A stretch of DNA of 64,000 nucleotides from Dehalococcoidia bacterium (GCA_965263165.1 OZ253584.1:245785-309784), one strand, 5' to 3'; shown: positions 50,698 through 63,905, numbered from the stretch's first letter. Program-made: numbers and translations. The notes: a model not told the origin generated them from the sequence alone.

Positions 50698-50726
50698 CGA
50701 GTCTGGGAAGTCGCGGGGCCGGACAC

Positions 50727-50948: not shown

Positions 50949-51059
50949 CGGGGATGGCGCGACATCGGAGCGAGCAATTGGACGGGGAGGTTGGAATCGG
51001 GGGTCGAAACCACCTACAGGACAGCCCCCTCCAGGACATGACTGCGAGGAGGTGCGACC

Positions 51060-51893
51060 ATGAATGAGCGGGTTGGGAACGGCAACGGGAGCGTGGACGC
51101 GGAGAGGTTACGGCGGCTCAGGCTGAGCGAGTTCCTGCGGGCCCTGGTTCGGCAGGAGGGCAAGATGGAGGCCGCCGAGCTGCTGGGGGTCAACCACAAG
51201 ACCCTGACGCGGGCCGAGGAGTCGGGTGAGATCACGGGGCGCATGGGCGATGCGCTGGAGCTGCTGCTGAGGAGGGCGGACGACGCCGAGGTCGCGCGGC
51301 TGCGGGAGGCGGTCGGTGCGCTGGAGGAGCGGGTGGCGGCGCTGGAGGGCGGCATGGAGACGCCTCCTGCGGCAGATGTGGAAGGCGGGGGTGAGAGCAG
51401 ACAGGTGGAGGGCGGTGACGAGGACGGTACCCAGGCCCAGGCGCAGGGCGGGAAGCACGAGGAAGGGGCGGGCCGGTCGGAGACCAGGGCCGCCCCTCCA
51501 ATGGCGGGTGTGCGCTCGAAGAAGCGGGCGACGCTGCGCAGGCTGGACCCGGAGGTGGTCACCGAGGAGCCCGCCGCCGCCGACCCGGAGGTCTACGGCG
51601 ATGCGTGGCCTCTGGTCGAGGAGTGGCGACGGCTGCAGGCCGGGCATCCCCACCAGGGGAAGAGCCTGTCGTGGCTCACGACGGAGGAGCGTCTGCTCGT
51701 GCTGGAGCTGGCTATGCTGGAGGAGCACGGGCTGACCCTGCCCCCGGAGACCCAGGCCCTGCGGGGCTTCGGACGCAAGGGTCAGATCAACCATCGCTGG
51801 AAGGCGCTGGCCGACACTCGGGTGGCGCTGAGGAAACGGAAGCTGCTGCGCTGGGTGCGGACGGTCCTCACCCTGTGGCTGTGGCGGAAGTAG
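51060..51893 (+). CDS. HTH-containing regulator-like protein (277 aa)
   Basis: MEAAELLGVNHKTLTRAEESGEITGRM is an HTH-like segment. It is followed by a coiled coil, an acidic low-complexity region and a conserved-looking C-terminus. Confidence 0.5.
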   Translation: MNERVGNGNGSVDAERLRRLRLSEFLRALVRQEGKMEAAELLGVNHKTLTRAEESGEITGRMGDALELLLRRADDAEVARLREAVGALEERVAALEGGMETPPAADVEGGGESRQVEGGDEDGTQAQAQGGKHEEGAGRSETRAAPPMAGVRSKKRATLRRLDPEVVTEEPAAADPEVYGDAWPLVEEWRRLQAGHPHQGKSLSWLTTEERLLVLELAMLEEHGLTLPPETQALRGFGRKGQINHRWKALADTRVALRKRKLLRWVRTVLTLWLWRK

Positions 51894-51923
51894 GCCCCGG
51901 AGCCGGCTCCGGGGCCGGTTTTC
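51893..51923 (+). terminator. intrinsic terminator
   Basis: GGCCCCGGAGCC/GGCTCCGGGGCC is a perfect 24-nt palindrome that starts in the stop codon, followed by GGTTTTCGG. Confidence 0.7.
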
Positions 51924-52121
51924 GGCGGTTGCTACATCGGAGCGAAGTGGGCGCTAAGTCGGTGCGAGCAATTTAGGTTGCGTTGGCCCGAAACAGGGTT
52001 TAGGGCCTTCCATTCGCTCGGTTGTTCGGGCGATAATTGACGCAGTTTCTGGCTTTTTCCAGTGTTTCCTGCCTAGAAACCTGGAGGATTCCCGTCCCCC
52101 GAATCCGGGACCGGCTGCATA

Positions 52122-52200
52122 GGATTGAGCCTTGCTCTCCGAACAGCCGCCCAGGGGTCAGACCGGAAGGATTGAGCCTCGCTCTCCCGAAGGCCGCCCC
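52122..52200 (+). repeat. two ~33-nt direct repeats with a 47-nt period
   Basis: GGATTGAGCCTTGCTCTCCGAACAGCCGCCC (52122-) and GGATTGAGCCTCGCTCTCCCGAAGGCCGCCCC (52169-). Confidence 0.6.
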
Positions 52201-52648
52201 GGAGGACACAATTCGCAGCGGTTGGAGCGTCTCTCGCTTCGGCCCCTCGGACACCTTGGTCGGAGTGCGCCCTGCACACTGGCCGGTTCCTCACGTCTGC
52301 GGCATGGTTCCTGTGGAACTGGCCGCAGCTTCACCACGCGCCGGTCTGCGATGAGGTCTTAGCTGGCTGGCCGCTTCCCTCGCAGCTTCCCAGGACGTTA
52401 CAGACGTAGCTCCCGGGTCTCGCTGCGTCTCTCACCGCGCCGTCCTGTGGTTGCTCTGCAGGCCGGTCGGTTCCCCCCATTTCATAGCAGCTCCCCCTGA
52501 GTCCATTCCCTGTGATGTGACCCTGGGCCGAGCTGCGTCTTTCTCACCACGGCGTCTCCCTGCGTTCGTCTCGTGGTCGGACTGCGTATGGCGGCGGAAC
52601 GGCAACACGGATTCACGGAGTCAACAGCAGCAAGGAGGTAACGACGGT

Positions 52649-53086
52649 ATGGCTACTGAACGGACGGACGGCAACGGCGAAGGAGGAGCGCACATGACGG
52701 AACGGTACACGGGACCGAGCGCGAAGCGGATCGCAGACCTGCTTCCGCACCGGGTGAGCTTCGAGCGGGGCTGGTTCTGGACGACGACGGCCATCTGTCA
52801 CGGCGGCAAGTCGGACGGGTTGGCGTTCAGGCAGCGACCGGACGGCAACGGCATCGACGTGCGCTGCCACACCGGGGGCTGCTCGGCCGGCGTGGTGATA
52901 ACCGAACTTGAGGCTCTCATCGGGCTGCCCATCTGGACGGCCTTCGAGCCTGTGAGCGACACCGCGGTCAAGGCCCCAGAGAAGCAACCGTGGTGGAAGC
53001 GACAGCGGGTCTGGGCGCCGACGGTGGTCGCCCCCTGGTCGTGGCGGCGCCGCTTATCACCGGCGACGTGGAGCTCTTCGTCCTGA
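52649..53086 (+). CDS. primase-type zinc-finger (CHC2/Prim_Zn_ribbon-like) small protein; 3' end doubtful
   Basis: ATG 52649 follows AAGGAGG. AICHGGKSDGLAFRQRPDGNGIDVRCHTGGC resembles C-x-H...(17-20)...C-x2-3-C primase zinc ribbons. The last ~32 codons are abnormally Trp/Arg-rich. Confidence 0.45.
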   Translation: MATERTDGNGEGGAHMTERYTGPSAKRIADLLPHRVSFERGWFWTTTAICHGGKSDGLAFRQRPDGNGIDVRCHTGGCSAGVVITELEALIGLPIWTAFEPVSDTAVKAPEKQPWWKRQRVWAPTVVAPWSWRRRLSPATWSSSS

Positions 53087-53297
53087 ACCTCGTCGGGCTG
53101 GGCATCGGAGCGCTGCTGCTCCGGCGGTTCATGGCTCGGCGTCCGGTAGGGAGGGTCCGTCGCCGCTGACGACAGGTCCTCCGGCTCCCTCATACCCATC
53201 CCAACACGCAAGGGTCGTCTCCATCCGGGGACGGCCCTTCTTCTTTGCCCGCAAGCGGGCGCAATCCAAAGGCAACACAACACAGAAGGAGGTCGTG

Positions 53298-53783
53298 ATG
53301 ACAACGGCAACATTGGCAACTGGCAATCGGACGATGACGGATGTTCGGCCTAGGCGCAGCCTCGAAGAGCTCGTCGACCGGCTCATTGCGGCGCTGTTCA
53401 AGGAGGAGGAGCCGGAGGCGGAACAGGCGACGGAGACACCGAGCGTGGCCAAGAGCCTCCACGAGGCGCGGCGGCTCAGGCAGGCGGGGGACGTGGATAG
53501 GGCGCTGGCGGTCCTCGCCGGCACGGACACGACGAAGGCTGAGCCGCATCAGGCTCGGTGGGCCTACGCCGAGTGGACGGATCTGGTGAAGCGGCGGTTC
53601 GGGGACCGGGACGCGCTGGTCTACAGCCAGGGCGCGGGACAGGCCGCCGCGCTGGTTCCCAGGGACGACGGCTCGCTTGAGGTCGCGGCGGTCCTGGGGA
53701 TGCGCTGGCGGCCCGGCAAGGTCGTCTCGGGGCGCAGCCTCCGGGGGCTGAGGCCCTTGGCGAAGGCTTGCCCTCGGCCCTGA
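53298..53783 (+). CDS. hypothetical protein (161 aa)
   Basis: ATG lies 5 nt after AGGAGG. Its N-terminus MTTATLATGNRT matches the N-terminus of the next gene. No family recognised. Confidence 0.45.
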   Translation: MTTATLATGNRTMTDVRPRRSLEELVDRLIAALFKEEEPEAEQATETPSVAKSLHEARRLRQAGDVDRALAVLAGTDTTKAEPHQARWAYAEWTDLVKRRFGDRDALVYSQGAGQAAALVPRDDGSLEVAAVLGMRWRPGKVVSGRSLRGLRPLAKACPRP

Positions 53784-54069
53784 CCGAAGAGTGGTTCTGC
53801 GCTGGCGTAGCCCAAGCAACGGTTGACGACTCGTGAGGCAAACGGGGCGCCTCAGTGCCCTGCTTGGACCCCGGGTCGTCGCCTTCTTGCGACTGCTTGC
53901 ACGGGCGCTCCGTTCCACCAGGCAGCGCCCCGCACGGGGGGCGTTGCCTCCTCCGCCCGCTCCCCTGCGGGTTTCCATCCCTCTTCCCCCAACCCCACAC
54001 GCGTCGCACAGGTCTTCTCCTCGACTCCGGCCGGGGGTGTGACCTGTGCCCGATGCACGACGGAGCCTG

Positions 54070-54141
54070 CCCCGGACTTGATTCCGGGGGCTTGCCCCGC
54101 ACACGGCCTTCCACAGAGGCCGCCCCGGACTTGATTCCGGG
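54070..54141 (+). repeat. two copies of the hairpin CCCCGGACTTGATTCCGGG
   Basis: Copies at 54070-54089 and 54123-54141. Each copy is itself a CCCGGA/TCCGGG inverted repeat. Confidence 0.6.
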
Positions 54142-54273
54142 ATGCCGCACCGGCCATTCGCCACGGCAACAACGCCACCCAAGGAGACAGTCCCGACCAC
54201 CGGGACAAGGCATCGAGCGGGACTGTCTCCGACAAGGGGGCCGTCCCGCTTCTTCATTACAGGAGGAAGCGAC

Positions 54274-55392
54274 ATGACGACGGCAACAACGGCACAGACC
54301 AATCGGACCAAGGAGACGGCCGGAGCGGAGAGCGAGCTCAGGGCCGCTGCGAGGCGGCGGGGGCTCACCATGAAGGAGCTTGCGGCCATGATGGGCGTGA
54401 GCGCGGGCTACCTGTCGGGGCTTTCGACGGGGCGTACGCCGTGGACTCCGAAGATGCGCGAGAAGGTCGCGGCGGTCTTGGGAGAGGTCCCCGGACAGGG
54501 GATCGTCTACCGCCAGGGCAGCGTCGTGACCGGCGAGAGCAGCTTCATCAGGGAGCGCGCCCGCGAGATGGGCATGACCATGAAGGACCTGGCCGAGCGG
54601 ACCGGGGTTTCCTACAGCTACATGACCCAGGTGGCCCGTGGCCGCCAGCACATGGGCGTCAAGGTCCAGGCCAGGGTCGAGTCGGCGCTGCACGCTCCGG
54701 CGAAGATCGCGCCCGCCAAGTGCGCCAACCGACAGGTCGGCGTGGTGGCCGGGGAGTCCAGCTACATCCGGGAGCGAGCCAGGGAGCTGGGCATGAGCAT
54801 GACGGAGCTGGCCGAGCGGGCCGGGGTGTCCCACGGCTACCTGTCGCAGATATCCAGGGGCCGCGGGAGCATGGGCGTGAAAGTCCAGGCGCGGATCGAG
54901 TCGGTGTTGGAGGCTCCGGTGAAGGTCGCTCCCGCGCAGCCCGCCAGCATCGACCGGGAGGCGATGTGGGGCCGGATGGACGCTCACGGCTTCAGCCAGA
55001 ACGAGGTCGCCCGGCGAGCGGGCATCAGCTCCTCGTACCTCTCCCACATCATGAACGGCAAGTCCTCCCCGTCGGCGGGCGTGCTGAAGGGGCTGCACGG
55101 TGTCCTGTTCCAGCCGACGAGTGCGGAGCGCGTCATGCCCGCCGAGGTGAAGGTGTTGGGTTGGCGCAAGGGCGAGCGGAGCGGGATGGTGGTGCGCGGC
55201 GCCGGTGGCCCCGGGCGCGGCGACAAGGCCGGCGGCGGGACAGTCAGGGTCGGCGGCCGGGTGCCCTGGGGAGCGAAGGCGGAGTTCGCCTACCGCGCCG
55301 GGTACGACGGCATGGGCCGGGTCTCGGTGACGCACGTCGTCGAGCGGGGCTACTCCGTCATGCTGAAGCAGCCGGAGACGGTAGCTGCGTAG
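54274..55392 (+). CDS. protein with four tandem XRE-type HTH domains plus a C-terminal domain
   Basis: HTH 1 LTMKELAAMMGVSAGYLSGLSTG, HTH 2 MTMKDLAERTGVSYSYMTQVARG, HTH 3 MSMTELAERAGVSHGYLSQISRG, HTH 4 FSQNEVARRAGISSSYLSHIMNG. Real start is ATG 54274, after AGGAGGAAG. Confidence 0.7.
   Translation: MTTATTAQTNRTKETAGAESELRAAARRRGLTMKELAAMMGVSAGYLSGLSTGRTPWTPKMREKVAAVLGEVPGQGIVYRQGSVVTGESSFIRERAREMGMTMKDLAERTGVSYSYMTQVARGRQHMGVKVQARVESALHAPAKIAPAKCANRQVGVVAGESSYIRERARELGMSMTELAERAGVSHGYLSQISRGRGSMGVKVQARIESVLEAPVKVAPAQPASIDREAMWGRMDAHGFSQNEVARRAGISSSYLSHIMNGKSSPSAGVLKGLHGVLFQPTSAERVMPAEVKVLGWRKGERSGMVVRGAGGPGRGDKAGGGTVRVGGRVPWGAKAEFAYRAGYDGMGRVSVTHVVERGYSVMLKQPETVAA
54532..54969 (+). repeat. 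internal 219-nt tandem duplication (HTH repeats 2 and 3)
   Basis: GESSFIRERAREMGMTMKDLAERTGVSYSYMTQVARGRQHMGVKVQARVESALHAPAKIAPA versus GESSYIRERARELGMSMTELAERAGVSHGYLSQISRGRGSMGVKVQARIESVLEAPVKVAPA. Confidence 0.7.
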
Positions 55393-55655
55393 GGCTCCGT
55401 GACGCACCGCATGATGGGCGGCTGCCTCGGAGCAGCCTGGGACGGCCCACACCGGGCCGCATACGCGAGTCCCGCCGTGGGCGGGCCTTCGCACGTTCAA
55501 GCATTCGCCTGGGGGCGTTGCCGGAACCCGACCGCCCCCGCTGGGGCGGTGCAGTCCGTCTCCCGTCGCTCTCCGCCTAGCGGCGGCGACTGATGGAGAC
55601 GTGCGTCCGGTTCCGGCGTCGTCCTCTAACCACCACGAAAAGGAGGACGACTCAC

Positions 55656-58016
55656 ATGAACCTCGGAGGTTTCATAGACACGTTCAAGGACGCGATAGCC
55701 AAGAGGGTGGTCGAGTCCTACCCGCCGCTCTACCGGCCCTCGGAGAACGGCGGCACGCTCCCCAGGCTGCTCCGAAAGCCCCTGGGGGCGCAGGCCGACG
55801 CCATCAGGGGCGCGGCTCTCTCCCTCAAGGCCCACCGGGGCACCACCGTCGTCGGCGAAATGGGCACCGGAAAGACCTTCATCGGCGCCGCCGCCTCATA
55901 CATGGCGGGCTTCGAGCGGGTGCTCATCATCTGCCCGCCCCACCTGGTGCCGAAGTGGAAGCGGGAGATCGAGCAGACGGTGCCCGGCGTCCGCGCCGCC
56001 ATCGTCGAGTCCATCACCGACCTGGAGCGGCTGCGCCTCTCCATAGGCTCCGGCCCCCTCTTCGCGGTGATGAGCCGTGAGAAGGCCAAGCTGTCCTACC
56101 GCTGGATGCCCGCCGTGATACAGCGGTGGGCGACATCCAAGGGAAGGCTCCTGCGGGAGGAGGAGACGGGGGAGCCCTTCCGGGTCCCCTGCTGCCCCGA
56201 CTGCACGGCGCAGATCGTCGACAAGGACGGCGTGCCGTTGACGTTCGCGGACCTGAACCGCCGCAAGCACACCTGCGACGCCTGCGACGCCCCGCTGTGG
56301 CAGGCCGACCGATCCGGGCCTGCCCGATACCCTTTGGCCGACTACATCAAGCACAGGATGAAGGGCTTCTTCGACCTGCTCGTGACCGACGAGGTGCATG
56401 AGTACAAAGGGCGGGGCTCGGCCCAGGGCATCGCCGCCGGCATCCTCGCCGACGTGTGCGGCAAGTCCCTGTCCCTTACGGGCACGCTCTTGGGAGGGTA
56501 CTCCTCGACCATCTTCCACCTGCTCTACAGGTTCTCGCCGGAGATCAGGACGGAGTTCGGGCGCTCCGACGAGCACCGCTGGATACAGCGGTACGGCTTC
56601 GAGGAGGTCACCGTCGGCAAGCCCGACGACGACGCGGTGGAGGACGGGCGAAACAGCAGCCGCCGCAAGTACCGCAAGGTGGTGCGGGAGAGGCCGGGCC
56701 TCGTGCCCTCGGCCCTCTTCCACATCATCGGGAACACGGTGTTCCTGCGCCTCGCGGACGTTGCCTCCGGGCTGCCGCCCTACGAGGAGAAGATCCTCGT
56801 GTCCTCGATGGACTCGGAGGAGGACGCCACGGGCTACTCCCAGCGCAGCGCCTACAACACCGTGTTCGAGGAGCTGAAGAAGGAGTTGGCGGCCGCCCTC
56901 AAGAGCGGCTCCAAACGGCTGCTGGCGACCTACCTCCAGACCCTGTTGGCCTACCCGGACGGCTGCACCAAGGGGGAGACGGTGTTCGACCCCAGGACGG
57001 GCGACGTCATCGTCGCGGTCCCGCCGCTTTCCGAGGAGAAGCTCTACCCGAAGGAGAAGGCGCTGGTCGACCTGGTGGCCGCCGAGCGGATGGAGGGAAG
57101 GCGGGTGCTGGTCTACGTGACCCACACGGGGACGCGGGACATCACCGGGCGGATGGACGACATCCTCACCCGGCACGGGTTCAAGGTGGCGGTGATGAAG
57201 GCCGACGCGGTGGCCCCGAACCGCCGTGAGGCGTGGGTGGCCGACAAGGTGAAGGAGGGCATCGACGGGCTCATCTGCCACCCCAGGCTGGTGCAGACCG
57301 GCCTGGACCTCATCGACTTCCCGACGATTTGCTGGGACGAGACAGATTATTCGGTGTACGTCGTCCGGCAGGCGTCGCGGCGGTCGTGGCGCATCGGGCA
57401 GACCCGCCCGGTGAAGGTGGTGTTCATGTCCTACCGGAACACCCTGCAGGCCGACGCGCTGAAGCTGGTGGCGAAGAAGATGCAGAGCTCCCTGGCCGTC
57501 GAGGGAGAGCTGCCGGAGGACGGCCTCGCCGCATACGGGGACGACGGCGACGACATGATGATGGCCCTGGCCCGCAAGATCGTCAGCGGTGACGAGGAGG
57601 ACACCGAGACGATGGAGGAGGTGTTCGCCCAGGCACGGGACGCCGAGAGCGAGGCCGAGGAGCTGCTGGTTGACGACGGCTGGAAGGTCGTCGAAGTGGA
57701 GCCGGAGACCATTGCGGTCAACGGCAACGGGAATGCCAACGGCCACCACGAGGACGTGTTCGGGCCGACGGTCGAGCTTGTCCCGGCCAGCGGCCGGAAC
57801 GGAAACGGGCACGCGCCCGCCCCGGTCAACGGGAGCGGTAACGGCCACCACACAGAGGCCCCGGAGCCGCAGCAGTCGCTGTTCTCCTGGGCGGAATTCA
57901 TGGCCGAGGAGCCGGTGAAGTCCAGGGGCCGCAAGACCCAGGCACCGTCACTGTCCCTGTTCGAGTGGGCGGTGGAACAGGAGCGAGAGGAGGAGCCGGT
58001 CGGCGCAGGTCGCTAG
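55656..58016 (+). CDS. SNF2-family helicase with an inserted Cys4 zinc ribbon
   Basis: Motif I GEMGTGKT, II DEVHEYK, III LTGTLLGG, VI QASRRSWRIGQTRPVKV. Ribbon CCPDC...CDAC between motifs I and II. Asn/Gly/His-rich acidic tail. ATG 55656 follows AAAGGAGGA. Confidence 0.85.
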   Translation: MNLGGFIDTFKDAIAKRVVESYPPLYRPSENGGTLPRLLRKPLGAQADAIRGAALSLKAHRGTTVVGEMGTGKTFIGAAASYMAGFERVLIICPPHLVPKWKREIEQTVPGVRAAIVESITDLERLRLSIGSGPLFAVMSREKAKLSYRWMPAVIQRWATSKGRLLREEETGEPFRVPCCPDCTAQIVDKDGVPLTFADLNRRKHTCDACDAPLWQADRSGPARYPLADYIKHRMKGFFDLLVTDEVHEYKGRGSAQGIAAGILADVCGKSLSLTGTLLGGYSSTIFHLLYRFSPEIRTEFGRSDEHRWIQRYGFEEVTVGKPDDDAVEDGRNSSRRKYRKVVRERPGLVPSALFHIIGNTVFLRLADVASGLPPYEEKILVSSMDSEEDATGYSQRSAYNTVFEELKKELAAALKSGSKRLLATYLQTLLAYPDGCTKGETVFDPRTGDVIVAVPPLSEEKLYPKEKALVDLVAAERMEGRRVLVYVTHTGTRDITGRMDDILTRHGFKVAVMKADAVAPNRREAWVADKVKEGIDGLICHPRLVQTGLDLIDFPTICWDETDYSVYVVRQASRRSWRIGQTRPVKVVFMSYRNTLQADALKLVAKKMQSSLAVEGELPEDGLAAYGDDGDDMMMALARKIVSGDEEDTETMEEVFAQARDAESEAEELLVDDGWKVVEVEPETIAVNGNGNANGHHEDVFGPTVELVPASGRNGNGHAPAPVNGSGNGHHTEAPEPQQSLFSWAEFMAEEPVKSRGRKTQAPSLSLFEWAVEQEREEEPVGAGR

Positions 58017-58252
58017 GCCGCAACACGCAGGGGGAGGCAGTCGGCGACGTAGCGATTGCCCCCCCTGCCTTCCATGTATGGGGCCTTTTTGCGTTTCTGG
58101 AACTGGCGATAGCAGGCCCGCCTAAAGTCGATGAGGAGATAACCCGACCACCTGTCAGGGGTCAATGCTGGTCACTTCGGCCTTGGCTTCCGTGTCTCGT
58201 CTACCCAATGACTTATCATACAGGCTGCTTGGACAGCATGAGGCGTCCCGGC

Positions 58253-59221
58253 TCATAGGAAACGCTGTCCCGCATGATCTGCAAAGGCATCTGCGTCACG
58301 TATGTATCGCATTACCGTTGCCGGGTTGGTGTGCCGAGTAACCTCCATGATCTTATCCAATCGCGCGTGGTGAACAGCCGCGCTGGTGACAAAGCCCGCC
58401 CTCAACGAATGGCCTGCTATATCTTTCGGGTCCAGTCCGATGAGTGCTGCATAGTGCCTAAGGATACGAGGAATATCGCTATGGTGCATCGCCTTTCCTC
58501 GCAAATGCCCTCCTCGCTTCATTGTCTGGAAAAGCGGCCCTTTGGCGATGCCCGAGCCCTCCAGCCACAGTCGAAGGTGCTCTATCGGACGAATGATTCT
58601 TCCATCTAAGATCGCCACCCTTTGTCCTTTGCCGTGTTGGTCAGTCTTGGACTGGCGTATCGTAAGCCACATACGATCCTCATCATTCTCTCTCGAATCA
58701 AGGAACTCAACATCATCGACGATCAGATCGCATATCTCTGATCGGCGCAAAGCTCCGGCGAATCCGACGGCAATGATTGCGGCGTCCCTCCTGCCAATCA
58801 ACGTATTGGGACACGCTCGCAACATGGCTTTAATGTGATACTCTCGCAAAGCCTCGACTTTGCGGCTAGAGGAGCCTTTGAGCCGAGCCAACCCCTTGAG
58901 CGTCGCACGAACTATCGGATGACTCGTGGGTGACGGCTTGCCAGCCTCAAGGTACTTCTTGTTCACGGCACTCTTGTAGAGCATGACCGTGCCCATCGAA
59001 GGTGTTACACCGCTTTTCGGACTAGCACCAGTTGCCAGACGAACAAAGAAGCGGGCGACCCTATCGGGAGGAACCGATAGAGGATCGTCAATCCCCTCTG
59101 CAACACAGTAGTCCATGAACCTACTCCACCCTTTCTGATATGCCTTTCGAGTGTTGTCCGACAACTCCGAAGACATTGCCTCTATCTGCAAGTCCCTATC
59201 TGCCAATGCCAAAGCATCCAT
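58253..59221 (-). CDS. tyrosine site-specific recombinase
   Basis: ALRRSE (Arg I), HSLRAGF (His-x-x-Arg) and TVMRYI (Tyr). It lies next to the inverted methyltransferase segments. Confidence 0.9.
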   Translation of the reverse strand: MDALALADRDLQIEAMSSELSDNTRKAYQKGWSRFMDYCVAEGIDDPLSVPPDRVARFFVRLATGASPKSGVTPSMGTVMLYKSAVNKKYLEAGKPSPTSHPIVRATLKGLARLKGSSSRKVEALREYHIKAMLRACPNTLIGRRDAAIIAVGFAGALRRSEICDLIVDDVEFLDSRENDEDRMWLTIRQSKTDQHGKGQRVAILDGRIIRPIEHLRLWLEGSGIAKGPLFQTMKRGGHLRGKAMHHSDIPRILRHYAALIGLDPKDIAGHSLRAGFVTSAAVHHARLDKIMEVTRHTNPATVMRYIRDADAFADHAGQRFL

Positions 59222-59559
59222 ATCGTCCTCCGTGTCTCAGTAAGTATCGTCTCCATCAGCTTGTCCCATATGGTCACGGGATTCGGAGAGCGTACTGAGA
59301 CTGACCGATGTGAGGACCTACCGTCTGGATGAGGAGGGCCGGAGGCTCAAGCAGACGCTTGAGGACAAGCACTCGGCGTACTCGCAGGCATGAGCCTATG
59401 CGGTGTCCACCGGTGGTCTAAGGTATGAGGGGTCGGAAGTTGTAAGGAGGGATTTGAAGTTGGGCAGTCGCAGCACCGATACTCAGGCGCGTCAAGACGG
59501 ACGGGTCTGCCCTGCGGATGCGGTTACGCTGTCACACCGTAGGATGTGGATATGCAATT

Positions 59560-60285
59560 AACTACGGAATAAAAACCGGATTCAACGATGCCTTCATCAT
59601 CAATAACCAGACTAAGGAAGCGCTAGTCGCCCAGGACCAACGCTCCAAGGAGATCATCAAGCCTGTGCTGCGGGGCAAAGACATCCAGCGCTTTCGGGCG
59701 AAGTGGGCCGACATGTGGATTATCGACACGCATAACGGGTACGATGGTGTTCCGGCGATAAACATTGACGACTACCCTGCTGTCAAGGCTTACCTCGACG
59801 GCCATTATGAGCAGTTGGAGAAACGGTACGATAAGGGACGAACTCCGTATAACCTCCGTAACTGCGCTTACCACGCAGAATTCGTCAAGGAGAAGCTCTT
59901 CTGGATTGATTTGACGGAGGAAGGCAGGTTCGCGTATGACGATGGCGAGATGTTCTGCGTGAATTCTGCGTATATGCTGACGGGCAGTTCCCTCAAGTAC
60001 CTATGTGCTATCCTCAACTCCGCTCCTGTAACGTGGTTCATGCAGAATAGTGCGCTCAACTCAGGAATGGGCACCACCAGGTGGGTGAGATTCACTGTTG
60101 AACGTATTCCTATTCCCATTATCGATATCGCAGGTCAGCAACCATTCGTCCGAGCTGTGAATGCTATTCAAGATGCCTTGCGCACTGGGGCAGATACCAT
60201 GATCTTGGAATCCGACTTAGATAACCTTGTGTATGAACTGTACGGTTTAACCGCAGATGAGATCAGGGCTGCGAATCGGCAATGA
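59560..60285 (+). pseudogene. 5'-truncated, promoterless copy of the methyltransferase C-terminal (TaqI_C-like TRD) region; candidate silent specificity cassette
   Basis: It aligns with residues ~790-1024 of the 60345-63419 product: GIKTGFNDAFIINNQTKEAL/GITTGLNDAFIIDNQTKEAL, KPVLRGKDIQR, KYLCAILN/KYLCAVLN, ERIPIP/ERLPIP and ELYGLT/QLYGLT. It lacks the whole MTase part. Confidence 0.7.
59590..59692. repeat. left copies of inverted repeats IR-A and IR-B
   Basis: IR-A at 59590-59621, GCCTTCATCATCaATAACCAGACTAAGGAAGC. IR-B at 59674-59692, GGCAAAGACATCCAGCGCT. Confidence 0.85.
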
Positions 60286-60344
60286 ATCCGAGGTCTCGAC
60301 CAACCCAACAGCGTTGCCATTTCTGAGTCACAAATCCAGCCGGA

Positions 60345-63300
60345 CTAGAGACGTTGCTCCACCGCCGTGATCTCTGAGGGCGTCAATCCGTATAGCTGGT
60401 ACACTCTAGCATCAATATCTGCTTCGATTTCCTTTAGGTCGCCAGGCTTTGCCATCAATGCCCTATCGACCAGCCCGCTAAAGTGCTGCTGTCTCGGACC
60501 AGTGATTCTCGGTATGGGCAAGCGTTCGACATAGACCTTCTTCCACCGCAGTGTCCCCATACCGGAGGTGGGAGCCACGTTTTCCAAGAACCATCGAATT
60601 AGCTTTGCATTCAGGACGGCGCATAGGTACTTAATGGATTCGCCCGTGAGTAGGAAAGTCGTAGCTTCACCGTAGAATCCGCTGTTGTCGTAGGCGAAGC
60701 GGCCGTTGTTGACAAGTTCAATCCAGAGTAGTTTCTCCTTGGTGAAATCTTCGTGGTAAGCGCAGGTATCTTGCATTTCAAACCAGGCGTTGCTAGTCTT
60801 CTTTCTAGATCGTCCTCCGTTAGGAAGACGCTTACCCGATTGCTCCAATCTTCGTTTGCCAAAAGTAAGCAGGTATCTCTTCACAGCCGGATAGATATCG
60901 ATGTTGAGGTCGAGAGCAGGAAACGTAGCTATAAGCCACAAACCCTTCCACTGGGCTTGGTAGCGCTGGATGTCTTTGCCTCGTAGTACTGGCTTGATGA
61001 CCTCGGCAGACTTGGGGTCCTCCGCGATTAGTGCTTCCTTAGTCTGGTTATCGATGATGAAGGCGTCGTTGAGCCCGGTAGTTATTCCTCGATAAATTGC
61101 AATATCCCAATCTTTCAGTGGCGTTCCCTTGGCACGCATCTTGTCAAGCACGCTTTGTTCCAAGAGCGAAAGGATGCTCCAGGGGGCAGCGCCATCAGGA
61201 CGCACGAGGCCCCAGTGCCTCTCCTCCGGTGGAACGGTCGCCTCAGCCAGCCGGTCCATGTCTACACCCGGGAATTCCTTTCCGGAGCCGCCGGTTCTTG
61301 CCACAAGCACACCCGAGTCCACAATTGCCGAGTCGAACACATCCTTGCCCAATTCCAGCAGACGAAGAGGGGTGTGTTGGTCTGCAAAGTATTGGCGTGT
61401 GGATTTGCCGTATTCTGCCTTCAGCCAGCTGTTGGAGGTGATGTAGGCCAGCAGGCCGTTGGCGGGCTTGAGTGTCTGACAACCCCGCTCGTAAAACAAT
61501 TGATAGACATCCCCGGTACGGGCAAACGTCTTGTATCCGACACCCTTGTACAGGTTGCCTAGTAAGCCCTGATTGCCTTGCAGTTGCACGTAAGGTGGAT
61601 TCGCGATGGCAATGTCGAATCCCCGCCGCTGGGCGAACACCTCCGCAAACTCCACGCGCCAGTCAATGGCACCGGCGGGTTTCCCGTCTGCACCCAGGGA
61701 GCTACGCAACGCGGACTCGGCCTCCTGGATGGCATAGCGCAATTCCTCCTTGTCCGGGCCTTCAGAGGCGCGCATGTATTGCGCCTTCAACCTGCCCAAC
61801 CGTCGTACCGCGTCGGCATCGTAGCCCAGAGTTCCCTGCACCTCGACTCCCGGGCTAGGGTCTGGCCCAAGTAGGCTATCTCCGCAGAGCACCTTGAAAT
61901 CCAGGTTGGGCAGCGGTTCCGGACGTTCTCCCTCATAGTCAATAGCGAGCGAAAGCCACATCCTGAGCATGGCGATGTTGACGGCAAAATCGTCTATGTC
62001 CACCCCGTAGAGGTTTCGCTGGATGATTTCCAGTTTCAGGTCGTAGAGGGCCTTGGCGTCCACACCGGCGTTGTAAAGGGCGGTCTGGAGTTCGATGAGC
62101 TCCTGCATCATTCCCAGCAGATAGGCCCCCGACCCGCAGGCTGGGTCTACCACGGTCACGTGCTCCAAGGCTGCTGCCACACGTCGCGCTTCTGCCACTT
62201 GGATGCCCTCGGTAACGTGGCTGTCCACGAATAGGGCAATAGCTTCGGGCGTGAGGCCAGTGTCTTCTCCCTCAAGGTACCCCTTGAGGGCCTCTCGGCA
62301 CATGAAAGACACCACGTGGCGCGGCGTGTAGTAAGCCCCTGTGTCGTGGCGGCCCGTTACCAATTCCTCGAACATCTTCCCCAGCATCTCCGGGTCGACC
62401 GCCACCTCCACATCAAAGGGAGTGGACTCCAAAATGGTGAAGTTGAAGCGGTCGAACAACTTAGTGAAGATCTCGGTGATGCACTCGTCTGGGACGACTA
62501 TGCCGTCTCGGATGTCGAGTTCGTTCCGCTCAAACAGTCCGCCGTTTAGGAAGGGCACGTGACCTATGATCTCCGACAGGTAGGCTCCGGCGTTGCCCAT
62601 TTCGTTCGGATGCGGTTTGTTAAGACCATGAAAGAATAGCGGCCACAGCCGCTCATCGTAGAAATTGTCTCCATCCTTGTTCCGGTAGTCACTCCACAGG
62701 GCACTGAGGTATTCTCTGTCACCCTCGAAGGTGAGCCATCCTTTACGGGACAGAAAATAGATGAACATGAGCCGGTTGAAGAGTGTCTGGACGAACCGTC
62801 GCTTGGACTCACCCTCTTTGCCGAAGCCAGTAACGCTTTGCTCCACTAGATTGAAGACCCGCCTGTACTCCCGGAAGAATTCCCTGGTGACGGGCTCAAC
62901 GTCGAAAGCCTCGTCCAAGGCTATCTGGATGCTGCCAGTGTCCCGGTGCTTCCAGTAGATGTTGGAAACTTGCTGGACCGCCGTGCGACGGGGCAAGTCA
63001 CGCTCCACCACCATGCGGCGTAGGACCGGTCGGACGTTGTCGAAGTTGGGATACACGAGGTGCAACTGACTAGCGGAGGAATTGGTGACGACGAGGAGTA
63101 GGTCCCCGTCCAGCTGCTGGTTGATGAGCTTGGCAGCGGTGGCCGCCTCACCCTTGCCCACACGGTCCGACTCCGGTTTTTCTAGCGCGAGATACGCTAC
63201 TTGCACACCGTCCGAGTAGGCGACACGTTCCGCCGAAGTAGGCAGGGCCATACTGCTTGGAGCGGCGCCCAAGTCCACGTGTCCAGATGCTGGGTTGAAA

Positions 63301-63419
63301 TCGAGCACCTCAACGAACAGTGAACGCACGGCGGCTCCCCGATCGCTCGCAGGCGCAGCGAAGATATGCTGGATACGGTCCTGGACTTCGACCGCGTCTT
63401 CTCGGCTCCTGATGGGCAT
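60345..63419 (-). CDS. large gamma-class N6-adenine DNA methyltransferase, type IIG/IIL (MmeI/Eco57I/PglX-like) architecture
   Basis: 1024 aa. VPFLNGGLFE, motif I VVDPACGSGAYLL, motif IV IANPPYV, and a C-terminal TaqI_C-like TRD. Lower-GC patch. Confidence 0.85.
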   Translation of the reverse strand: MPIRSREDAVEVQDRIQHIFAAPASDRGAAVRSLFVEVLDFNPASGHVDLGAAPSSMALPTSAERVAYSDGVQVAYLALEKPESDRVGKGEAATAAKLINQQLDGDLLLVVTNSSASQLHLVYPNFDNVRPVLRRMVVERDLPRRTAVQQVSNIYWKHRDTGSIQIALDEAFDVEPVTREFFREYRRVFNLVEQSVTGFGKEGESKRRFVQTLFNRLMFIYFLSRKGWLTFEGDREYLSALWSDYRNKDGDNFYDERLWPLFFHGLNKPHPNEMGNAGAYLSEIIGHVPFLNGGLFERNELDIRDGIVVPDECITEIFTKLFDRFNFTILESTPFDVEVAVDPEMLGKMFEELVTGRHDTGAYYTPRHVVSFMCREALKGYLEGEDTGLTPEAIALFVDSHVTEGIQVAEARRVAAALEHVTVVDPACGSGAYLLGMMQELIELQTALYNAGVDAKALYDLKLEIIQRNLYGVDIDDFAVNIAMLRMWLSLAIDYEGERPEPLPNLDFKVLCGDSLLGPDPSPGVEVQGTLGYDADAVRRLGRLKAQYMRASEGPDKEELRYAIQEAESALRSSLGADGKPAGAIDWRVEFAEVFAQRRGFDIAIANPPYVQLQGNQGLLGNLYKGVGYKTFARTGDVYQLFYERGCQTLKPANGLLAYITSNSWLKAEYGKSTRQYFADQHTPLRLLELGKDVFDSAIVDSGVLVARTGGSGKEFPGVDMDRLAEATVPPEERHWGLVRPDGAAPWSILSLLEQSVLDKMRAKGTPLKDWDIAIYRGITTGLNDAFIIDNQTKEALIAEDPKSAEVIKPVLRGKDIQRYQAQWKGLWLIATFPALDLNIDIYPAVKRYLLTFGKRRLEQSGKRLPNGGRSRKKTSNAWFEMQDTCAYHEDFTKEKLLWIELVNNGRFAYDNSGFYGEATTFLLTGESIKYLCAVLNAKLIRWFLENVAPTSGMGTLRWKKVYVERLPIPRITGPRQQHFSGLVDRALMAKPGDLKEIEADIDARVYQLYGLTPSEITAVEQRL
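60962..61064. repeat. right copies of inverted repeats IR-B and IR-A (inside the full-length gene)
   Basis: The reverse complement of 61033-61064 is GCCTTCATCATCgATAACCAGACTAAGGAAGC (31/32 identical to 59590-59621). The reverse complement of 60962-60980 is GGCAAAGACATCCAGCGCT (19/19 identical). Confidence 0.85.
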
Positions 63420-63491
63420 ACGCCATTCCCTCTTTAGATAGGTGAGACCAAGGACAGATATCGCTCAATATCGTCATTCATCATACTTCCC

Positions 63492-63521
63492 ATTGCCGTT
63501 GTAAATCAACTCAAGGTACAA
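63492..63521 (+). promoter_or_regulatory. possible promoter for the XRE gene (TTGCCG-18 nt-TACAAT)
   Basis: Hexamers at 63492-63497 and 63516-63521, about 20 nt upstream of the start codon region. Confidence 0.3.
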
Positions 63522-63542
63522 TACTGTCCAGGGGGTGGCAAT

Positions 63543-63905
63543 ATGGATTTCCCTGAGCGTCTGCGCACGTTTCGCAAGCAGGCCCAACTGAGTCAGCGAG
63601 ACCTGGCAGAGAGGGTGGGGGTCGATTTCACCTACCTCAGCAAGATCGAGAACGGACGTGTCGAGCCACCCAGCGAAACTGTGTTGAGAAACATCTCGAA
63701 GGCACTCGCGGAGGCCCTGGACGAGGATGAGGTCGAATTGGCCGACAGGCTGATAACCCTAGCCGGAAAGATCCCGTCGGACTTGGCGGAGACTCTCTGT
63801 CGCAACCCTGAGGCCGTCAGGTTTCTGAGGTCCATCGGTAACGAGGTGTGGTCGTCCGAGGAGTGGCGACGGGTCATGAACGCCAGCCCGTCGGAGCGGC
63901 GATGA
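63543..63905 (+). CDS. XRE-family HTH protein
   Basis: LSQRDLAERVGVDFTYLSKIENGRVEPPSETVLRNISKAL. Divergent from the methyltransferase gene. Confidence 0.8.
   Translation: MDFPERLRTFRKQAQLSQRDLAERVGVDFTYLSKIENGRVEPPSETVLRNISKALAEALDEDEVELADRLITLAGKIPSDLAETLCRNPEAVRFLRSIGNEVWSSEEWRRVMNASPSERR

What the first reader, a model, noticed from the sequence alone, without database searches (positions are those of the whole stretch)
58253..63419. Candidate recombinase-driven specificity shufflon for a 1024-aa type IIG/PglX-like adenine methyltransferase
Three elements lie together in a lower-GC patch. (i) A tyrosine recombinase (58253-59221). (ii) A promoterless, 5'-truncated gene segment on the plus strand (about 59560-60285) that is homologous only to the C-terminal ~235 residues (TaqI_C-like target-recognition region) of the methyltransferase. 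(iii) The full-length methyltransferase on the minus strand (60345-63419), so the two TRD-coding segments are convergent and inverted.

The two copies are strongly diverged through most of the TRD. They nevertheless retain islands of near-perfect nucleotide identity in inverted orientation, in frame, at the TRD boundary. IR-A is 59590-59621 versus 61033-61064 (31/32 identical). IR-B is 59674-59692 versus 60962-60980 (19/19 identical). A weaker block lies around KYLCA(I/V)LN.

Recombination at IR-A or IR-B would invert ~1.3-1.4 kb and graft the alternative TRD onto the constant N-terminal and MTase part. That would switch the recognised sequence and hence the methylome, and the restriction specificity if the enzyme cleaves. 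The same design is established for Type I hsdS loci (for example the pneumococcal ivr/SpnD39III locus and Mycoplasma pulmonis hsd). Inverted pglX duplicates with a recombinase have also been noted in some BREX loci. I am not aware of it being described on an ICE of a high-GC monoderm.
Basis: partly seen in the sequence, partly recalled or inferred. Interest (0 to 1): 0.8.

Follow-up and report, generated by a model that had tools for sequence, protein, structure and literature searches.

The report
Invertible specificity switch of a DNA methyltransferase
A restriction-modification-type DNA methyltransferase carries a silent, inverted spare copy of its DNA-recognition domain next to a dedicated recombinase, and near-identical DNA from other samples holds the flipped versions, so the switch is real but belongs to an already described kind.

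Summary
In detail: a tyrosine recombinase (58253-59221, -), a promoterless 5'-truncated TRD cassette (59553-60285, +) and a 1024-aa Eco57I/TaqI_C methyltransferase (60345-63419, -), with IR-A 31/32 and IR-B 19/19.

The shufflon reading is supported by comparison. Contigs 98-99% identical to the window carry the reciprocal inversion of the whole TRD, and P0001/P0125 are exactly the predicted chimera. Another contig carries an inversion of the C-terminal half only.

The mapped crossovers are not at IR-A or IR-B. They lie in a 7-nt core TGCAATT (59553-59559 / 61095-61101) and a 14-nt core CTGCGCTTACCACG (59862-59875 / 60752-60765). IR-A instead shows concerted evolution in seven lineages. The silent cassette and an orthologous recombinase (73-92% identity) occur together, and recombinase homologues sampled the other way round sit in the same layout.

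The enzyme is not PglX. Its conserved neighbour is a PLD-SNF2 helicase gene lying just beyond the window. The closest relatives are Dehalococcoidia (Chloroflexota) MAGs, not actinobacteria.

Milman et al. 2023 (PMC9881135) already confirmed programmed inversions in this class with long reads. This is therefore a new member of a known kind. Within-population switching, recombinase dependence and the methylation motifs remain untested.

The parts
58253..59221 (-). Tyrosine recombinase (322 aa), the putative TRD invertase. It lies outside the invertible segment and is divergent from the silent cassette.
   Evidence: Pfam Phage_integrase 5e-14. Xer-like by NCBIfam, all below cut-off. R159/K192/H271/R274/H297/Y306 align to XerD catalytic residues. 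Orthologues of 73-92% identity are found only in loci that have a silent cassette. Homologues sampled the other way round sit in the same layout.
59222..59552 (.). Non-coding spacer between the recombinase start and the silent cassette. It presumably holds the recombinase promoter. The last ~15 nt (..AGGATGTGGATA) keep degenerate similarity to the expressed copy's ..AAAGATTGGGATAT.
   Evidence: Stop codons in all frames. Alignment of silent-copy flanks across 7 lineages. No sigma-70-like site found.
59553..59559 (+). S0 core (TGCAATT), silent-copy arm. This is the point where homology between the two copies begins, and the mapped crossover of the whole-TRD inversion.
   Evidence: Reciprocal junctions in L001 and L083. 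These are the only two TGCAATT in the 64-kb window. The GCN third base covaries between the two copies in 7 lineages.
59553..60285 (+). Silent, 5'-truncated TRD cassette. It has a head (INYGIKTGF), an N-half (..WIIDTHNGY..PYNLRN) and a C-half (CAYHAEFVKEKLFWIDL.. to the stop codon).
   Evidence: TaqI_C 7.6e-15. Aligns to MTase residues 773-1023. It is expressed as the C-terminus of P0001/P0125 in relatives.
59590..59621 (+). IR-A, silent-copy arm (partner 61033-61064), 31/32 identical.
   Evidence: In each of 7 lineages the two copies are identical over a stretch of this block, although the block differs between lineages (CAG/GAG/AAG/CGG). In relatives, an IS insertion (L002) and a deletion end-point (L084) both fall after ..CAGACT within this block.
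59674..59692 (+). IR-B, silent-copy arm (partner 60962-60980), 19/19 identical.
   Evidence: It is less consistently identical between copies in other lineages. It may reflect conservation of the RG(K/R)DIQR peptide.
59862..59875 (+). Mid-site core CTGCGCTTACCACG, silent-copy arm (partner 60752-60765). It is the boundary between the N-half and C-half of the TRD and the mapped crossover of the half-TRD inversion.
   Evidence: Reciprocal junctions in L002. The 13-nt CTGCGCTTACCAC is invariant at synonymous sites in 10 of 13 copies from shufflon loci; both L017 copies share TTGCGTTTACCAC, and L028's silent copy has one change. Loci without a shufflon but with the same CAYH peptide vary at synonymous sites.
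59977..60017 (+). Weaker inverted block (LTG.S.KYLCA.LN), partner 60610-60650, 76%.
   Evidence: (I4). No recombinant mapped here.
60286..60344 (.). 59-nt spacer between the two convergent stop codons. It is the centre of every possible inversion.
60345..61094 (-). Variable part of the expressed methyltransferase gene: the resident TRD with head IYRGITTGL, N-half ..WLIATFPAL..EMQDT and C-half CAYHEDFTKEKLLWIEL...
   Evidence: It is found as the silent copy in L001 and L083.
61095..61101 (-). S0 core (AATTGCA on the + strand), expressed-copy arm, within the codons for W-D-I-A-I.
   Evidence: The WDIAI codons (GATATYGCNATW) occur only in shufflon-bearing loci; other relatives have WDVKIN.
61102..63419 (-). 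Constant part of the methyltransferase. It has an N-terminal alpha/beta plus helical domain (residues 1-~330), a gamma-class N6-adenine MTase core (DPACGSG at 425, NPPY at 607) and a linker up to W771.
   Evidence: Pfam Eco57I, MmeI_Mtase and N6_Mtase. PADLOC REase_MTase_IIG 1e-174. Motifs located. N-terminal model pLDDT 83 with no significant PDB match.
63420..63542 (.). Divergent intergenic region with promoter-like hexamers on both strands. It is the presumed methyltransferase promoter.
   Evidence: consensus matches only; their number is no more than chance for the region.
63543..63905 (+). HTH (Xre-type) regulator divergent from the methyltransferase, possibly a C-protein-like controller. 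It is syntenic in relatives.
   Evidence: Pfam HTH_31/HTH_3. PADLOC Control_protein and HTH hits. Same position in L002, L083 and L084.

Best explanation
The locus is a multi-site invertible specificity shufflon for the methyltransferase/specificity subunit of a restriction-modification-like defence system.

**Layout.** The expressed gene (60345-63419, -) consists of a constant part (N-terminal domain plus gamma-class N6-adenine MTase core) and a C-terminal TaqI_C-type TRD. A promoterless TRD cassette lies tail-to-tail with it. The two copies share short inverted sequence blocks, in frame, at the same positions. These are S0 (TGCAATT) at the very start of the TRD, IR-A about 40 nt further in, and a mid-site (CTGCGCTTACCACG) between the two halves of the TRD.

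**Switching.** Reciprocal exchange between a pair of such blocks inverts the DNA between them and swaps everything downstream of the crossover. The whole TRD can be exchanged (S0 or IR-A) or only its C-terminal half (mid-site). Successive events give all combinations of head, N-half and C-half. That is 4 major TRD combinations, or 8 counting the short head.

**Catalyst (inferred).** The adjacent Xer-like tyrosine recombinase (58253-59221) is inferred to catalyse the exchanges. The inference rests on crossovers falling in 7- and 14-nt cores, and on the recombinase being found only, and always, with a silent cassette.

**Consequence (inferred).** Each variant is inferred to methylate a different target sequence. 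Through the conserved PLD-SNF2 helicase partner encoded just beyond the window end, each variant would also direct restriction to a different target. This diversifies the defence specificity and methylome of the population.

**Shown.** The anatomy, the reciprocal recombinants in near-identical DNA, the concerted evolution of the repeats, and the co-occurrence with the recombinase.

**Inferred.** Recombinase dependence, switching within a clone, different recognition sequences, and restriction by the PLD-SNF2 protein.
For: **Predicted products exist.** P0001 and P0125 (1016 aa) equal the window MTase up to ..DWDIAI, followed by the silent cassette to its stop. P0123 is identical to the window protein.

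**Reciprocal inversions.**
- L001 and L083 are 98-99% identical to the window, with 59535-61120 inverted.
- Both junctions switch parent at TGCAATT.
- L002 has an inversion whose two junctions both switch at CTGCGCTTACCACG, giving the resident N-half with the silent C-half.
- P0007 (73% identical) has the fourth combination.

**Independent lineages.** L208 and L209/L210 (recombinase 75% identical to the window's) differ by an inversion whose 1560-nt segment is 100% identical. The crossover lies inside a 66-nt exact repeat spanning S0 to IR-A. L206 and L207, from one sample, also differ by an inversion of the TRD segment.

**DNA-level constraint.**
- In 7 lineages homology starts at YGCNATW, with the N base covarying between the two copies.
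- The two copies are identical over a stretch of IR-A within each locus but differ between loci.
- The 13-nt core of the mid-site is invariant at synonymous sites in 10 of 13 shufflon copies (the exceptions: both L017 copies share one variant, and L028's silent copy has one change). Three non-shufflon relatives with the same peptide vary there.

**Recombinase link.**
- Among 80 species-representative genomes, a silent inverted TRD occurs in 6, and all 6 have the orthologous recombinase next to it.
- None of the other 74 has a recombinase orthologue; L004 has only a 26%-identical integrase about 9 kb away.
- Three recombinase clusters picked from the recombinase search gave 9 loci. In the six whose contig reaches the upstream genes, the methyltransferase lies upstream of the recombinase. 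Five of these keep the silent cassette between them; L207 has none called. A PLD-helicase gene is nearby in all nine.
- The catalytic R-K-H-R-H-Y residues are intact.

**Prior art for the mechanism.** Long-read-confirmed programmed inversions in Type II RM enzymes adjacent to a PLD+SNF helicase CDS (PMC9881135).
Against: - No read-level data show both orientations in one clonal population. All evidence is between contigs that differ by 1-2% elsewhere, so switching could be rare on an evolutionary scale rather than frequent phase variation.
- Recombinase activity and site specificity are not shown. The three exchange blocks share no obvious common arm sequence beyond a GATA just upstream, which was noticed after the fact.
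- Within the window alone the synonymous-site excess is modest.
- Several close relatives are decayed: an IS in IR-A with the recombinase lost (L002), a 1.18-kb deletion (L084), and truncated products (P0121, P0122). The window copy could therefore be a recently frozen version, although it is intact.
- The L084 deletion joins sites in inverted orientation, which conservative site-specific recombination does not produce.
- Whether the two TRDs recognise different sequences is inferred only from their divergence (about half of the aligned residues are identical, with several indels).
Confidence: 0.8

Rival explanations
1. The inversions are real but are made by general (RecA-type) homologous recombination, or by replication-associated template switching, between the inverted repeats. 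The neighbouring tyrosine recombinase would be an integrase of a mobile element and not the invertase.
For: Recombinase-independent inversion has been reported at the pneumococcal spnIII locus (title of PMC6620402, listed). In L208/L209 the crossover lies within a 66-nt exact repeat, which is long enough for some homologous exchange. The locus sits in an ICE-like region rich in recombinases and IS elements.
Against: The two best-mapped crossovers lie in 7-nt and 14-nt identity blocks flanked by mismatches. From general knowledge, these are far below the length RecA needs. Longer and better repeats (IR-A, 31/32) were available in the same molecules. The recombinase co-occurs with silent cassettes and with nothing else across lineages. 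It keeps 73-92% identity and a constant 322-aa length. No tRNA gene or att-like context accompanies it.
Confidence: 0.12
2. The silent cassette is a decaying remnant of a duplication. The different TRD combinations in relatives arose by horizontal allelic replacement, that is, homologous recombination with imported DNA, and not by intragenomic inversion.
For: Allelic TRD diversity of Type IIG genes between close strains without any inversion is documented (PMC2853133). TRD halves reassort across the whole family, including loci without a silent copy.
Against: The exchanges are reciprocal within one locus. What leaves the expressed gene appears in the silent position, and vice versa, with both junctions at the same core. 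The silent cassette keeps an open TRD frame in every lineage examined. The repeat blocks evolve in concert.
Confidence: 0.04
3. The apparent orientation variants are assembly artefacts caused by the inverted repeats in metagenome assemblies.
For: All variant contigs are metagenome assemblies. L001 has only 3x coverage. L084 has an odd deletion junction.
Against: The repeats are at most 32 nt in the window lineage and 66 nt in the L208 lineage. Contig names suggest a k-mer of 141 for the L208/L209 assemblies (k141_) and coverage-tagged long-read-style assemblies for L001/L083, so repeats this short should not be mis-joined (inference from contig names). The same form B was assembled independently in two samples (L001, L083; L084, from L083's sample, derives from it), and the L209 form in ENA and JGI data. 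Junctions are clean and reciprocal.
Confidence: 0.02

Closest known systems
Programmed inversions in Type II RM enzyme genes homologous to C. jejuni Cj0031, with an adjacent PLD+SNF-helicase CDS (Milman, Yelin & Kishony 2023, NAR; loci CP083813.1 Bacteroides ovatus and CP044495.1)
   Same: A large single-polypeptide Eco57I-type MTase-TRD gene is targeted by gene-altering inversions. A PLD-SNF2 helicase gene is the neighbour. [quoted passage not shown]
   Different: Here the hosts are Chloroflexota (Dehalococcoidia) MAGs, and the locus lies beside ICE-type (T4SS) genes. The evidence is comparative (reciprocal recombinants between contigs), not long-read coexistence. Crossovers were mapped to nucleotide-level cores (7 and 14 nt), and a nested three-site design that swaps TRD halves is documented. 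Direct sequence homology to those two loci could not be tested, because the records are not in the available collections.
BREX type 1 pglX duplications with an intervening recombinase (Goldfarb et al. 2015, from memory; Lacticaseibacillus rhamnosus NC_013198.1 and Brevibacterium casei in PMC9881135)
   Same: An adenine MTase of the same broad Eco57I/N6_Mtase superfamily has partial inverted copies and a recombinase. Inversion changes part of the protein.
   Different: The window protein fails the PglX models (88.8 bits against a cut-off of 500). No brxA/B/C, pglZ or brxL genes appear in the flanks of relatives. In L. rhamnosus a middle segment is swapped by two nested inversions with an unstable intermediate. 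Here the swapped part runs to the C-terminus, so every single inversion gives a complete protein.
Type I hsdS shufflons (S. pneumoniae SpnD39III/ivr with CreX, Mycoplasma pulmonis hsd, Bacteroides fragilis; PMC7672463, PMC7394358, PMC7641763)
   Same: One expressed specificity gene and silent partial copies. Several nested inverted-repeat pairs let two TRD modules reassort independently. An adjacent tyrosine recombinase is present. Short repeats (15 nt in the pneumococcus, from memory) serve as crossover sites.
   Different: The specificity module here is fused to the methyltransferase instead of being a separate HsdS subunit. The TRD fold is TaqI_C-type, not the Type I S fold. The restriction partner is a PLD-SNF2 protein, not HsdR.
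Class 1 DISARM DrmMI inversions (PMC9881135)
   Same: An Eco57I-type MTase is targeted by programmed inversions. PLD and SNF2 functions are in the neighbourhood. There are PADLOC DrmMI (1e-31) and DrmD (5e-36 for the partner) similarities.
   Different: No DrmA or DrmB (DUF1998) gene appears in any flank examined. PLD and SNF2 are fused in one 1164-aa protein, whose best PADLOC match is the candidate family 'HKD+Snf2' C3a139.

Membership tests
Inversion-type specificity shufflon of an RM enzyme | One expressed full-length specificity-bearing gene plus at least one promoterless partial copy in inverted orientation | tested here: met
   The silent cassette is 59553-60285 (+) and the expressed gene is 60345-63419 (-).
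Inversion-type specificity shufflon of an RM enzyme | In-frame inverted repeats shared by the copies at module boundaries | tested here: met
   The same positions hold in 7 lineages, with covariation or concerted evolution.
Inversion-type specificity shufflon of an RM enzyme | Linked site-specific recombinase | tested here: met
   Strict co-occurrence with the silent cassette. The reverse sampling gives the same layout.
Inversion-type specificity shufflon of an RM enzyme | Both (or all) orientations exist as reciprocal products | tested here: met
   Between near-identical contigs: L001 and L083 (S0), L002 (mid-site), L208 vs L209.
Inversion-type specificity shufflon of an RM enzyme | Coexistence of variants within one clonal population (phase variation proper) | not testable with these tools
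   No reads are available. L083/L084 and L206/L207 come from single samples but are different strains or contigs.
Inversion-type specificity shufflon of an RM enzyme | Variants methylate different target sequences | not testable with these tools
   Inferred only from TRD divergence: about half of the aligned residues are identical, with several indels.
Type IIG restriction-modification enzyme (R, M and S in one polypeptide, MmeI/Eco57I/Cj0031 type) | Gamma-class N6-adenine MTase core with a C-terminal TRD in the same chain | tested here: met
   Eco57I 3e-32, MmeI_Mtase 3.7e-11 and TaqI_C 2e-14. DPACGSG and NPPY motifs. PADLOC REase_MTase_IIG 1e-174 over residues 410-1021.
Type IIG restriction-modification enzyme (R, M and S in one polypeptide, MmeI/Eco57I/Cj0031 type) | N-terminal endonuclease domain with a catalytic PD-(D/E)XK motif | tested here: inconclusive
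   No nuclease Pfam domain was found; there is only a sub-threshold MmeI_hel match. The best PADLOC match leaves the N-terminal 410 residues unaligned. The N-terminal model is confident (pLDDT 83). PDB matches are all non-significant (E >= 0.07), with weak Hjc-, McrC- and MspJI-like hits. The invariant residues are D106, N113 and Q118, with H120 nearly invariant, and there is no ExK.
Type IIG restriction-modification enzyme (R, M and S in one polypeptide, MmeI/Eco57I/Cj0031 type) | Acts alone (solitary gene) | tested here: not met
   A PLDc_2 + SNF2/Helicase_C gene (1164 aa) lies within the 10-kb flanks in 69 of 82 related loci from several phyla. It is also present in L083 and L084, which are 98-99% identical to the window.
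BREX PglX | Scores above the NCBIfam PglX model cut-offs | tested here: not met
   BREX_1_MTaseX scores 88.8 bits against 500. BREX_2 scores 67.8 against 400.
BREX PglX | Embedded in a brxA-brxB-brxC-pglX-pglZ-brxL cluster | tested here: not met
   None of these genes is among the called genes and Pfam hits in the flanks of L002, L083, L084 and L205-L213. The window upstream of the recombinase has an SNF2-like helicase and HTH genes only.
Class 1 DISARM (DrmMI) | DrmA helicase and DrmB (DUF1998) present with the MTase | tested here: not met
   No DUF1998 or YprA-type gene appears in any flank listed. The DrmMI models score far below the Type IIG models.
Tyrosine recombinase (Xer/Cre/integrase superfamily) | Catalytic R-K-H-R-(H/W)-Y residues in order | tested here: met
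   R159, K192, H271, R274, H297 and Y306, from the alignment to XerD (1a0p) and motif positions.

The most novel reading that the evidence does not exclude
The methyltransferase and the PLD-SNF2 helicase form an uncharacterised two-component restriction system. It would resemble a split Type ISP or minimal DISARM-like system: a translocating HKD nuclease guided by a separate MTase-TRD subunit. The pair is widespread in Chloroflexota, Cyanobacteria, Poribacteria and Acidobacteria.

In a sub-lineage this system has captured a dedicated and unusually conserved invertase family (always about 322 aa, at least 73% identical). That invertase would act on three different short core sites (S0, IR-A, mid-site) to reassemble a TRD from independently swappable half-modules. 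Each half-module would read part of the target sequence.
Probability: 0.4. Interest if true: 0.55.

Novelty: new member of a known kind. Interest (0 to 1): 0.4.

Why it matters
The locus adds a well-resolved natural example of specificity switching in a single-chain MTase-TRD enzyme, in an uncultured and poorly studied phylum (Chloroflexota/Dehalococcoidia), lying next to conjugative-element genes.

Three of the four major TRD combinations are seen in DNA that is 92-99% identical, and the crossovers are mapped to 7- and 14-nt cores. This gives concrete substrates (TGCAATT, IR-A, CTGCGCTTACCACG) and a concrete enzyme (the 322-aa recombinase) for testing how one invertase handles several different sites.

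It also offers ready-made chimeras for mapping which TRD half reads which bases of the target.

It further flags that this methyltransferase family is almost always paired with a PLD-SNF2 helicase. That points to a multi-component restriction mechanism rather than a classical Type IIG enzyme.

It does not change the concept, because programmed inversions of this enzyme class are already published.

Tried and rejected
1. **Metagenome DNA-pattern scan.** I scanned for the S0 region with AAAGANTGGGATAWYGCNATW. It returned 120 mostly random hits, and only L132 is a distant relative.
2. **Full-length AlphaFold model.** The model was poor (pLDDT 56) and its PDB search was meaningless. The N-terminal model was good but found no significant structural neighbour, so the nuclease question stays open.
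3. **Source contig.** Look-ups of the window's own source contig through P0123 and P0140 (identical proteins on a 3.09-Mb NCBI/ENA contig) failed. The DNA beyond 64000 and the organism name could not be read directly.
4. **Plasmid search.** A megablast of 44000-58200 against the plasmid collection gave no match.
5. **Synonymous-site statistics inside the window.** They gave only modest support. I rejected them as the main argument in favour of cross-lineage covariation.
6. **PglX/BREX and DISARM membership.** Both were considered and rejected (and the flank gene lists).
7. **A shared recombinase arm motif.** I looked for one at the three exchange sites. Only a GATA just 5' of each exchange block was seen, which is post hoc and partly explained by Asp codons. 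It is not claimed.
8. **Goldfarb et al. 2015.** The paper could not be read. What is said about it is from memory and from its citation in PMC9881135.

Full report
**1. Observation**

- The ORF at 58253-59221 (-) is a 322-aa tyrosine recombinase. It matches Pfam Phage_integrase (5e-14) and has only sub-threshold Xer-type NCBIfam hits. Aligned to XerD, it has R159, K192, H271, R274, H297 and Y306 in the catalytic positions.
- The ORF at 60345-63419 (-) is 1024 aa. It carries Eco57I, MmeI_Mtase and TaqI_C domains and the motifs DPACGSG and NPPY.
- The plus-strand ORF 59518-60285 matches only TaqI_C. It aligns to residues 773-1023 of the methyltransferase. Upstream of the homology every frame is closed.

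IR-A (31/32) and IR-B (19/19) are exactly as stated. The GC drop is real.

Within the window alone, identity at synonymous sites is only moderately above expectation. It is concentrated in the first ~50 codons (26/35 identical codons against 36/83 in the rest, P=0.0025). The longest run of identical codons is not significant (P=0.06). The window by itself therefore does not prove a recombination substrate.

**2. Direct evidence for inversion**

A protein search with the methyltransferase returned P0001 (1016 aa). Its sequence is the window protein up to ..KDWDIAI, followed by the silent cassette from NYGIKTGF to its stop codon. This is exactly the product predicted for an inversion.

- **Form B, whole-TRD inversion.** The contig holding P0001 (L001) and a second, better-covered contig (L083, 12.8x) are 98-99% identical to the window. 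In both, 59535-61120 lies in the opposite orientation. A four-way alignment of the junctions shows that both switch parent at the same 7-nt core, TGCAATT. This core sits at 59553-59559 and, as its reverse complement, at 61095-61101. These are the only two copies in the 64-kb window.
- **Form C, half-TRD inversion.** A third contig (L002, 92-96% identical) differs by a smaller inversion. Both of its junctions switch at CTGCGCTTACCACG (59862-59875 / 60752-60765). The expressed gene there joins the resident N-half of the TRD to the silent C-half, and the displaced half sits in the silent position.
- **The fourth combination.** It is seen in a more distant homologue, P0007.
- **The window's own form.** P0123 is identical to the window protein, so form A is also on record.

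The exchanges are reciprocal, which argues for intragenomic inversion and against imported alleles.

**3. Independent lineages**

A scan of one genome per species gave 80 related loci. Nearly all are Dehalococcoidia or other Chloroflexota MAGs, plus cyanobacteria, Poribacteria, Acidobacteria and others.

A tblastn survey found a silent inverted TRD in six of them: L003, L012, L017, L019, L023 and L028. In all six it is followed by an orthologue of the recombinase (73-92% identical). None of the other 74 has such a recombinase. L004 has only a 26%-identical integrase about 9 kb away.

Comparing the expressed and silent copies within each of seven lineages gave three results.

- Homology starts abruptly at the same point, YGCNATW. 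The synonymous third base of the Ala codon is A, A, G, C, G, G and T in the seven lineages, and it is always the same in both copies of a locus.
- IR-A differs between lineages (AAC-CAG, -GAG, -AAG, -CGG; ACT or ACG). In every lineage the two copies are identical over a stretch of it, which is concerted evolution.
- The 13-nt core of the mid-site (CTGCGCTTACCAC) is invariant at every synonymous position in 10 of 13 copies. Both L017 copies share the variant TTGCGTTTACCAC, and L028's silent copy has one change.

Three relatives without a shufflon encode the same CAYH peptide but vary at synonymous sites. Relatives without a shufflon also encode WDVKIN where shufflon loci have WDIAI. These are DNA-level constraints specific to loci that can invert.

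**4. Reverse test from the recombinase**

A search with the recombinase found more than 120 clusters, nearly all of 322 aa and 72-100% identical. Three clusters chosen for long or numerous contigs gave nine loci.

- In the six whose contig reaches the upstream genes, the methyltransferase lies upstream of the recombinase. Five of them keep the silent TaqI_C cassette between the two (-), and L207 has none called.
- A PLD-helicase gene is nearby in all nine.
- In one of these lineages, L208 and L209/L210 differ by an inversion whose 1560-nt segment is 100% identical. The flanks are 98.1% and 99.7% identical. The crossover lies inside a 66-nt exact repeat running from S0 to IR-A.
- L206 and L207, two contigs from one sample, also differ by an inversion of the TRD segment.

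**5. What the system is**

PADLOC's best models are Type IIG RE-MTases (1e-174), but they align only from residue 410 onwards. The PglX models fail their cut-offs by a wide margin. No BREX or DISARM core genes occur in any flank examined.

The conserved neighbour is a 1164-aa PLDc_2 + SNF2/Helicase_C protein. Its best PADLOC match is the candidate family 'HKD+Snf2'. It is present in 69 of 82 related loci. In L002, L083 and L084 the order is PLD-helicase, PIN, AF2212-like, HTH, methyltransferase. The window ends 95 nt after the HTH gene, so the PLD-helicase is expected just beyond position 64000. This is inferred from synteny at 98-99% identity.

The N-terminal ~330 residues fold confidently (pLDDT 83). 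No significant PDB neighbour was found, only weak Hjc-, McrC- and MspJI-like hits. The invariant residues are D106, N113 and Q118, with H120 nearly invariant, rather than D...ExK. Whether the methyltransferase chain itself cuts DNA is therefore unresolved. The conserved PLD-SNF2 partner makes restriction in trans the more likely arrangement (inference).

**6. Host and context**

The window carries housekeeping genes: ValRS, enolase and a molybdopterin-dependent dehydrogenase of the xanthine dehydrogenase/aldehyde oxidase type. These are followed by a large serine recombinase, GmrSD, a T4SS coupling protein and a VirB4-like ATPase. This is consistent with an integrated conjugative element.

Several of these high-GC genes match the flanks of Dehalococcoidia MAG loci at 68-94% nucleotide identity. 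In L003 and L083 the helicase and the multi-HTH gene next to the recombinase are syntenic. Some of these MAGs have flanks of 65-72% GC. The host is therefore most likely a Dehalococcoidia-class Chloroflexota bacterium, not an actinobacterium. I could not confirm this directly.

**7. Mechanism and its uncertainties**

The most likely mechanism is recombinase-catalysed reciprocal exchange at nested inverted core sites. Exchange at S0 or IR-A swaps the whole TRD. Exchange at the mid-site swaps its C-terminal half. Because the swapped part runs to the stop codon, every single event yields a complete protein.

The crossovers mapped in 7-nt and 14-nt cores favour a site-specific enzyme over RecA, on general knowledge of the homology length RecA needs.

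The following are not shown:

- switching within a clone;
- dependence on the recombinase;
- different motifs for the variants.

Several close relatives are damaged.

- L002 has an IS inserted after ..AACCAGACT in IR-A and has lost the recombinase.
- L084 has a 1.18-kb deletion from the left edge of the mid-site to the same ..CAGACT position in IR-A of the other copy. The result is an 880-aa product.
- P0121 and P0122 are truncated.

Two independent breakpoints coincide in IR-A. This is suggestive of a cleavage point there, but it is unexplained.

**8. Comparison with what is known**

[quoted passage not shown] They confirmed programmed inversions with long reads in 11 Type II RM systems. These include Cj0031 homologues with an adjacent PLD+SNF-helicase CDS, BREX-1 PglX and DISARM DrmMI.

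The present locus fits their Cj0031-homologue class with a PLD+SNF-helicase neighbour. Functionally it works like the Type I hsdS shufflons, with nested repeats and two reassorting modules.

It is therefore a new member of a known kind. The additions are a new phylum, a position next to ICE-type genes, nucleotide-level crossover cores, and evidence for a dedicated, highly conserved invertase family.

**9. Verdict**

My confidence is about 0.8 that this is a functional, or very recently functional, invertible TRD switch, and somewhat lower that the adjacent recombinase is the catalyst.

Interest is moderate (0.4). The case is solid and experimentally tractable but conceptually expected.

Noticed in passing
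L002 5208-8702; L083 5209-8703; L084 5208-8702 (expected just beyond window position 64000): A 1164-aa PLDc_2 + SNF2/Helicase_C protein is linked to this methyltransferase family in 69 of 82 loci from several phyla, often with a PIN/AF2212-like pair. Its best PADLOC match is the candidate family 'HKD+Snf2' (C3a139). This looks like a conserved two-gene restriction system rather than a solitary Type IIG enzyme.
   Followed up: partly
L002 12395-13737; L084 12627; corresponding to window IR-A 61033-61064: Two independent rearrangements in close relatives break at the same point inside IR-A, after ..AACCAGACT. One is an IS (DDE_Tnp_1) insertion in L002. The other is the end of a 1.18-kb deletion in L084, whose other end is the left edge of the mid-site core. 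The deletion joins sites in inverted orientation, which conservative recombination should not do.
   Followed up: partly
P0121, P0122, P0003, P0124; L206 5516-6937: Many near-identical copies of the methyltransferase are inactivated by frameshift, truncation, an IS110 or IS4-type insertion, or a deletion. This suggests frequent loss of the system in natural populations.
   Followed up: no
window 28666-30387, 36872-38668, 41549-44638, 44206-46479: A large serine recombinase, a GmrSD Type IV restriction enzyme, a TrwB-like coupling protein and a VirB4/TraG-like ATPase follow housekeeping genes (ValRS 9023-11875, enolase 19430-20725). This is an ICE-like element. Parts of it match flanks of Dehalococcoidia MAG loci at 68-94% nucleotide identity.
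   Followed up: partly
window 54142-55392: A 416-aa protein is made of four tandem HTH_3 (Xre-type) repeats. It is syntenic with the SNF2-like helicase (55593-58016) next to the recombinase in L003, L083 and L084.
   Followed up: no
L003, L012, L017, L019, L023, L028: Across lineages the recombinase (73-92% identical) is consistently more conserved than the constant part of the methyltransferase (48-88%). For example, L023 has 48% for the MTase N-part against 75% for the recombinase. Either the recombinase evolves more slowly, or the TRD-cassette-recombinase module moves between methyltransferase genes.
   Followed up: no
L012 and L019, S0 region: In some lineages the S0 region of the expressed copy is a perfect palindrome: TATCGCGATA in L012 and ATATCGCGATAT in L019. 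In the window the corresponding sequence is ATTGCAAT. This is reminiscent of a recombinase core site, but it is not consistent in all lineages.
   Followed up: no
L003 2267-3684 vs window 29115-30514: In L003 a homologue of the window's large serine recombinase (68% nucleotide identity) lies next to the PLD-helicase side of the RM locus. In the window it is about 28 kb away on the other side. This is compatible with the RM locus sitting at the far end of the same integrated element.
   Followed up: no
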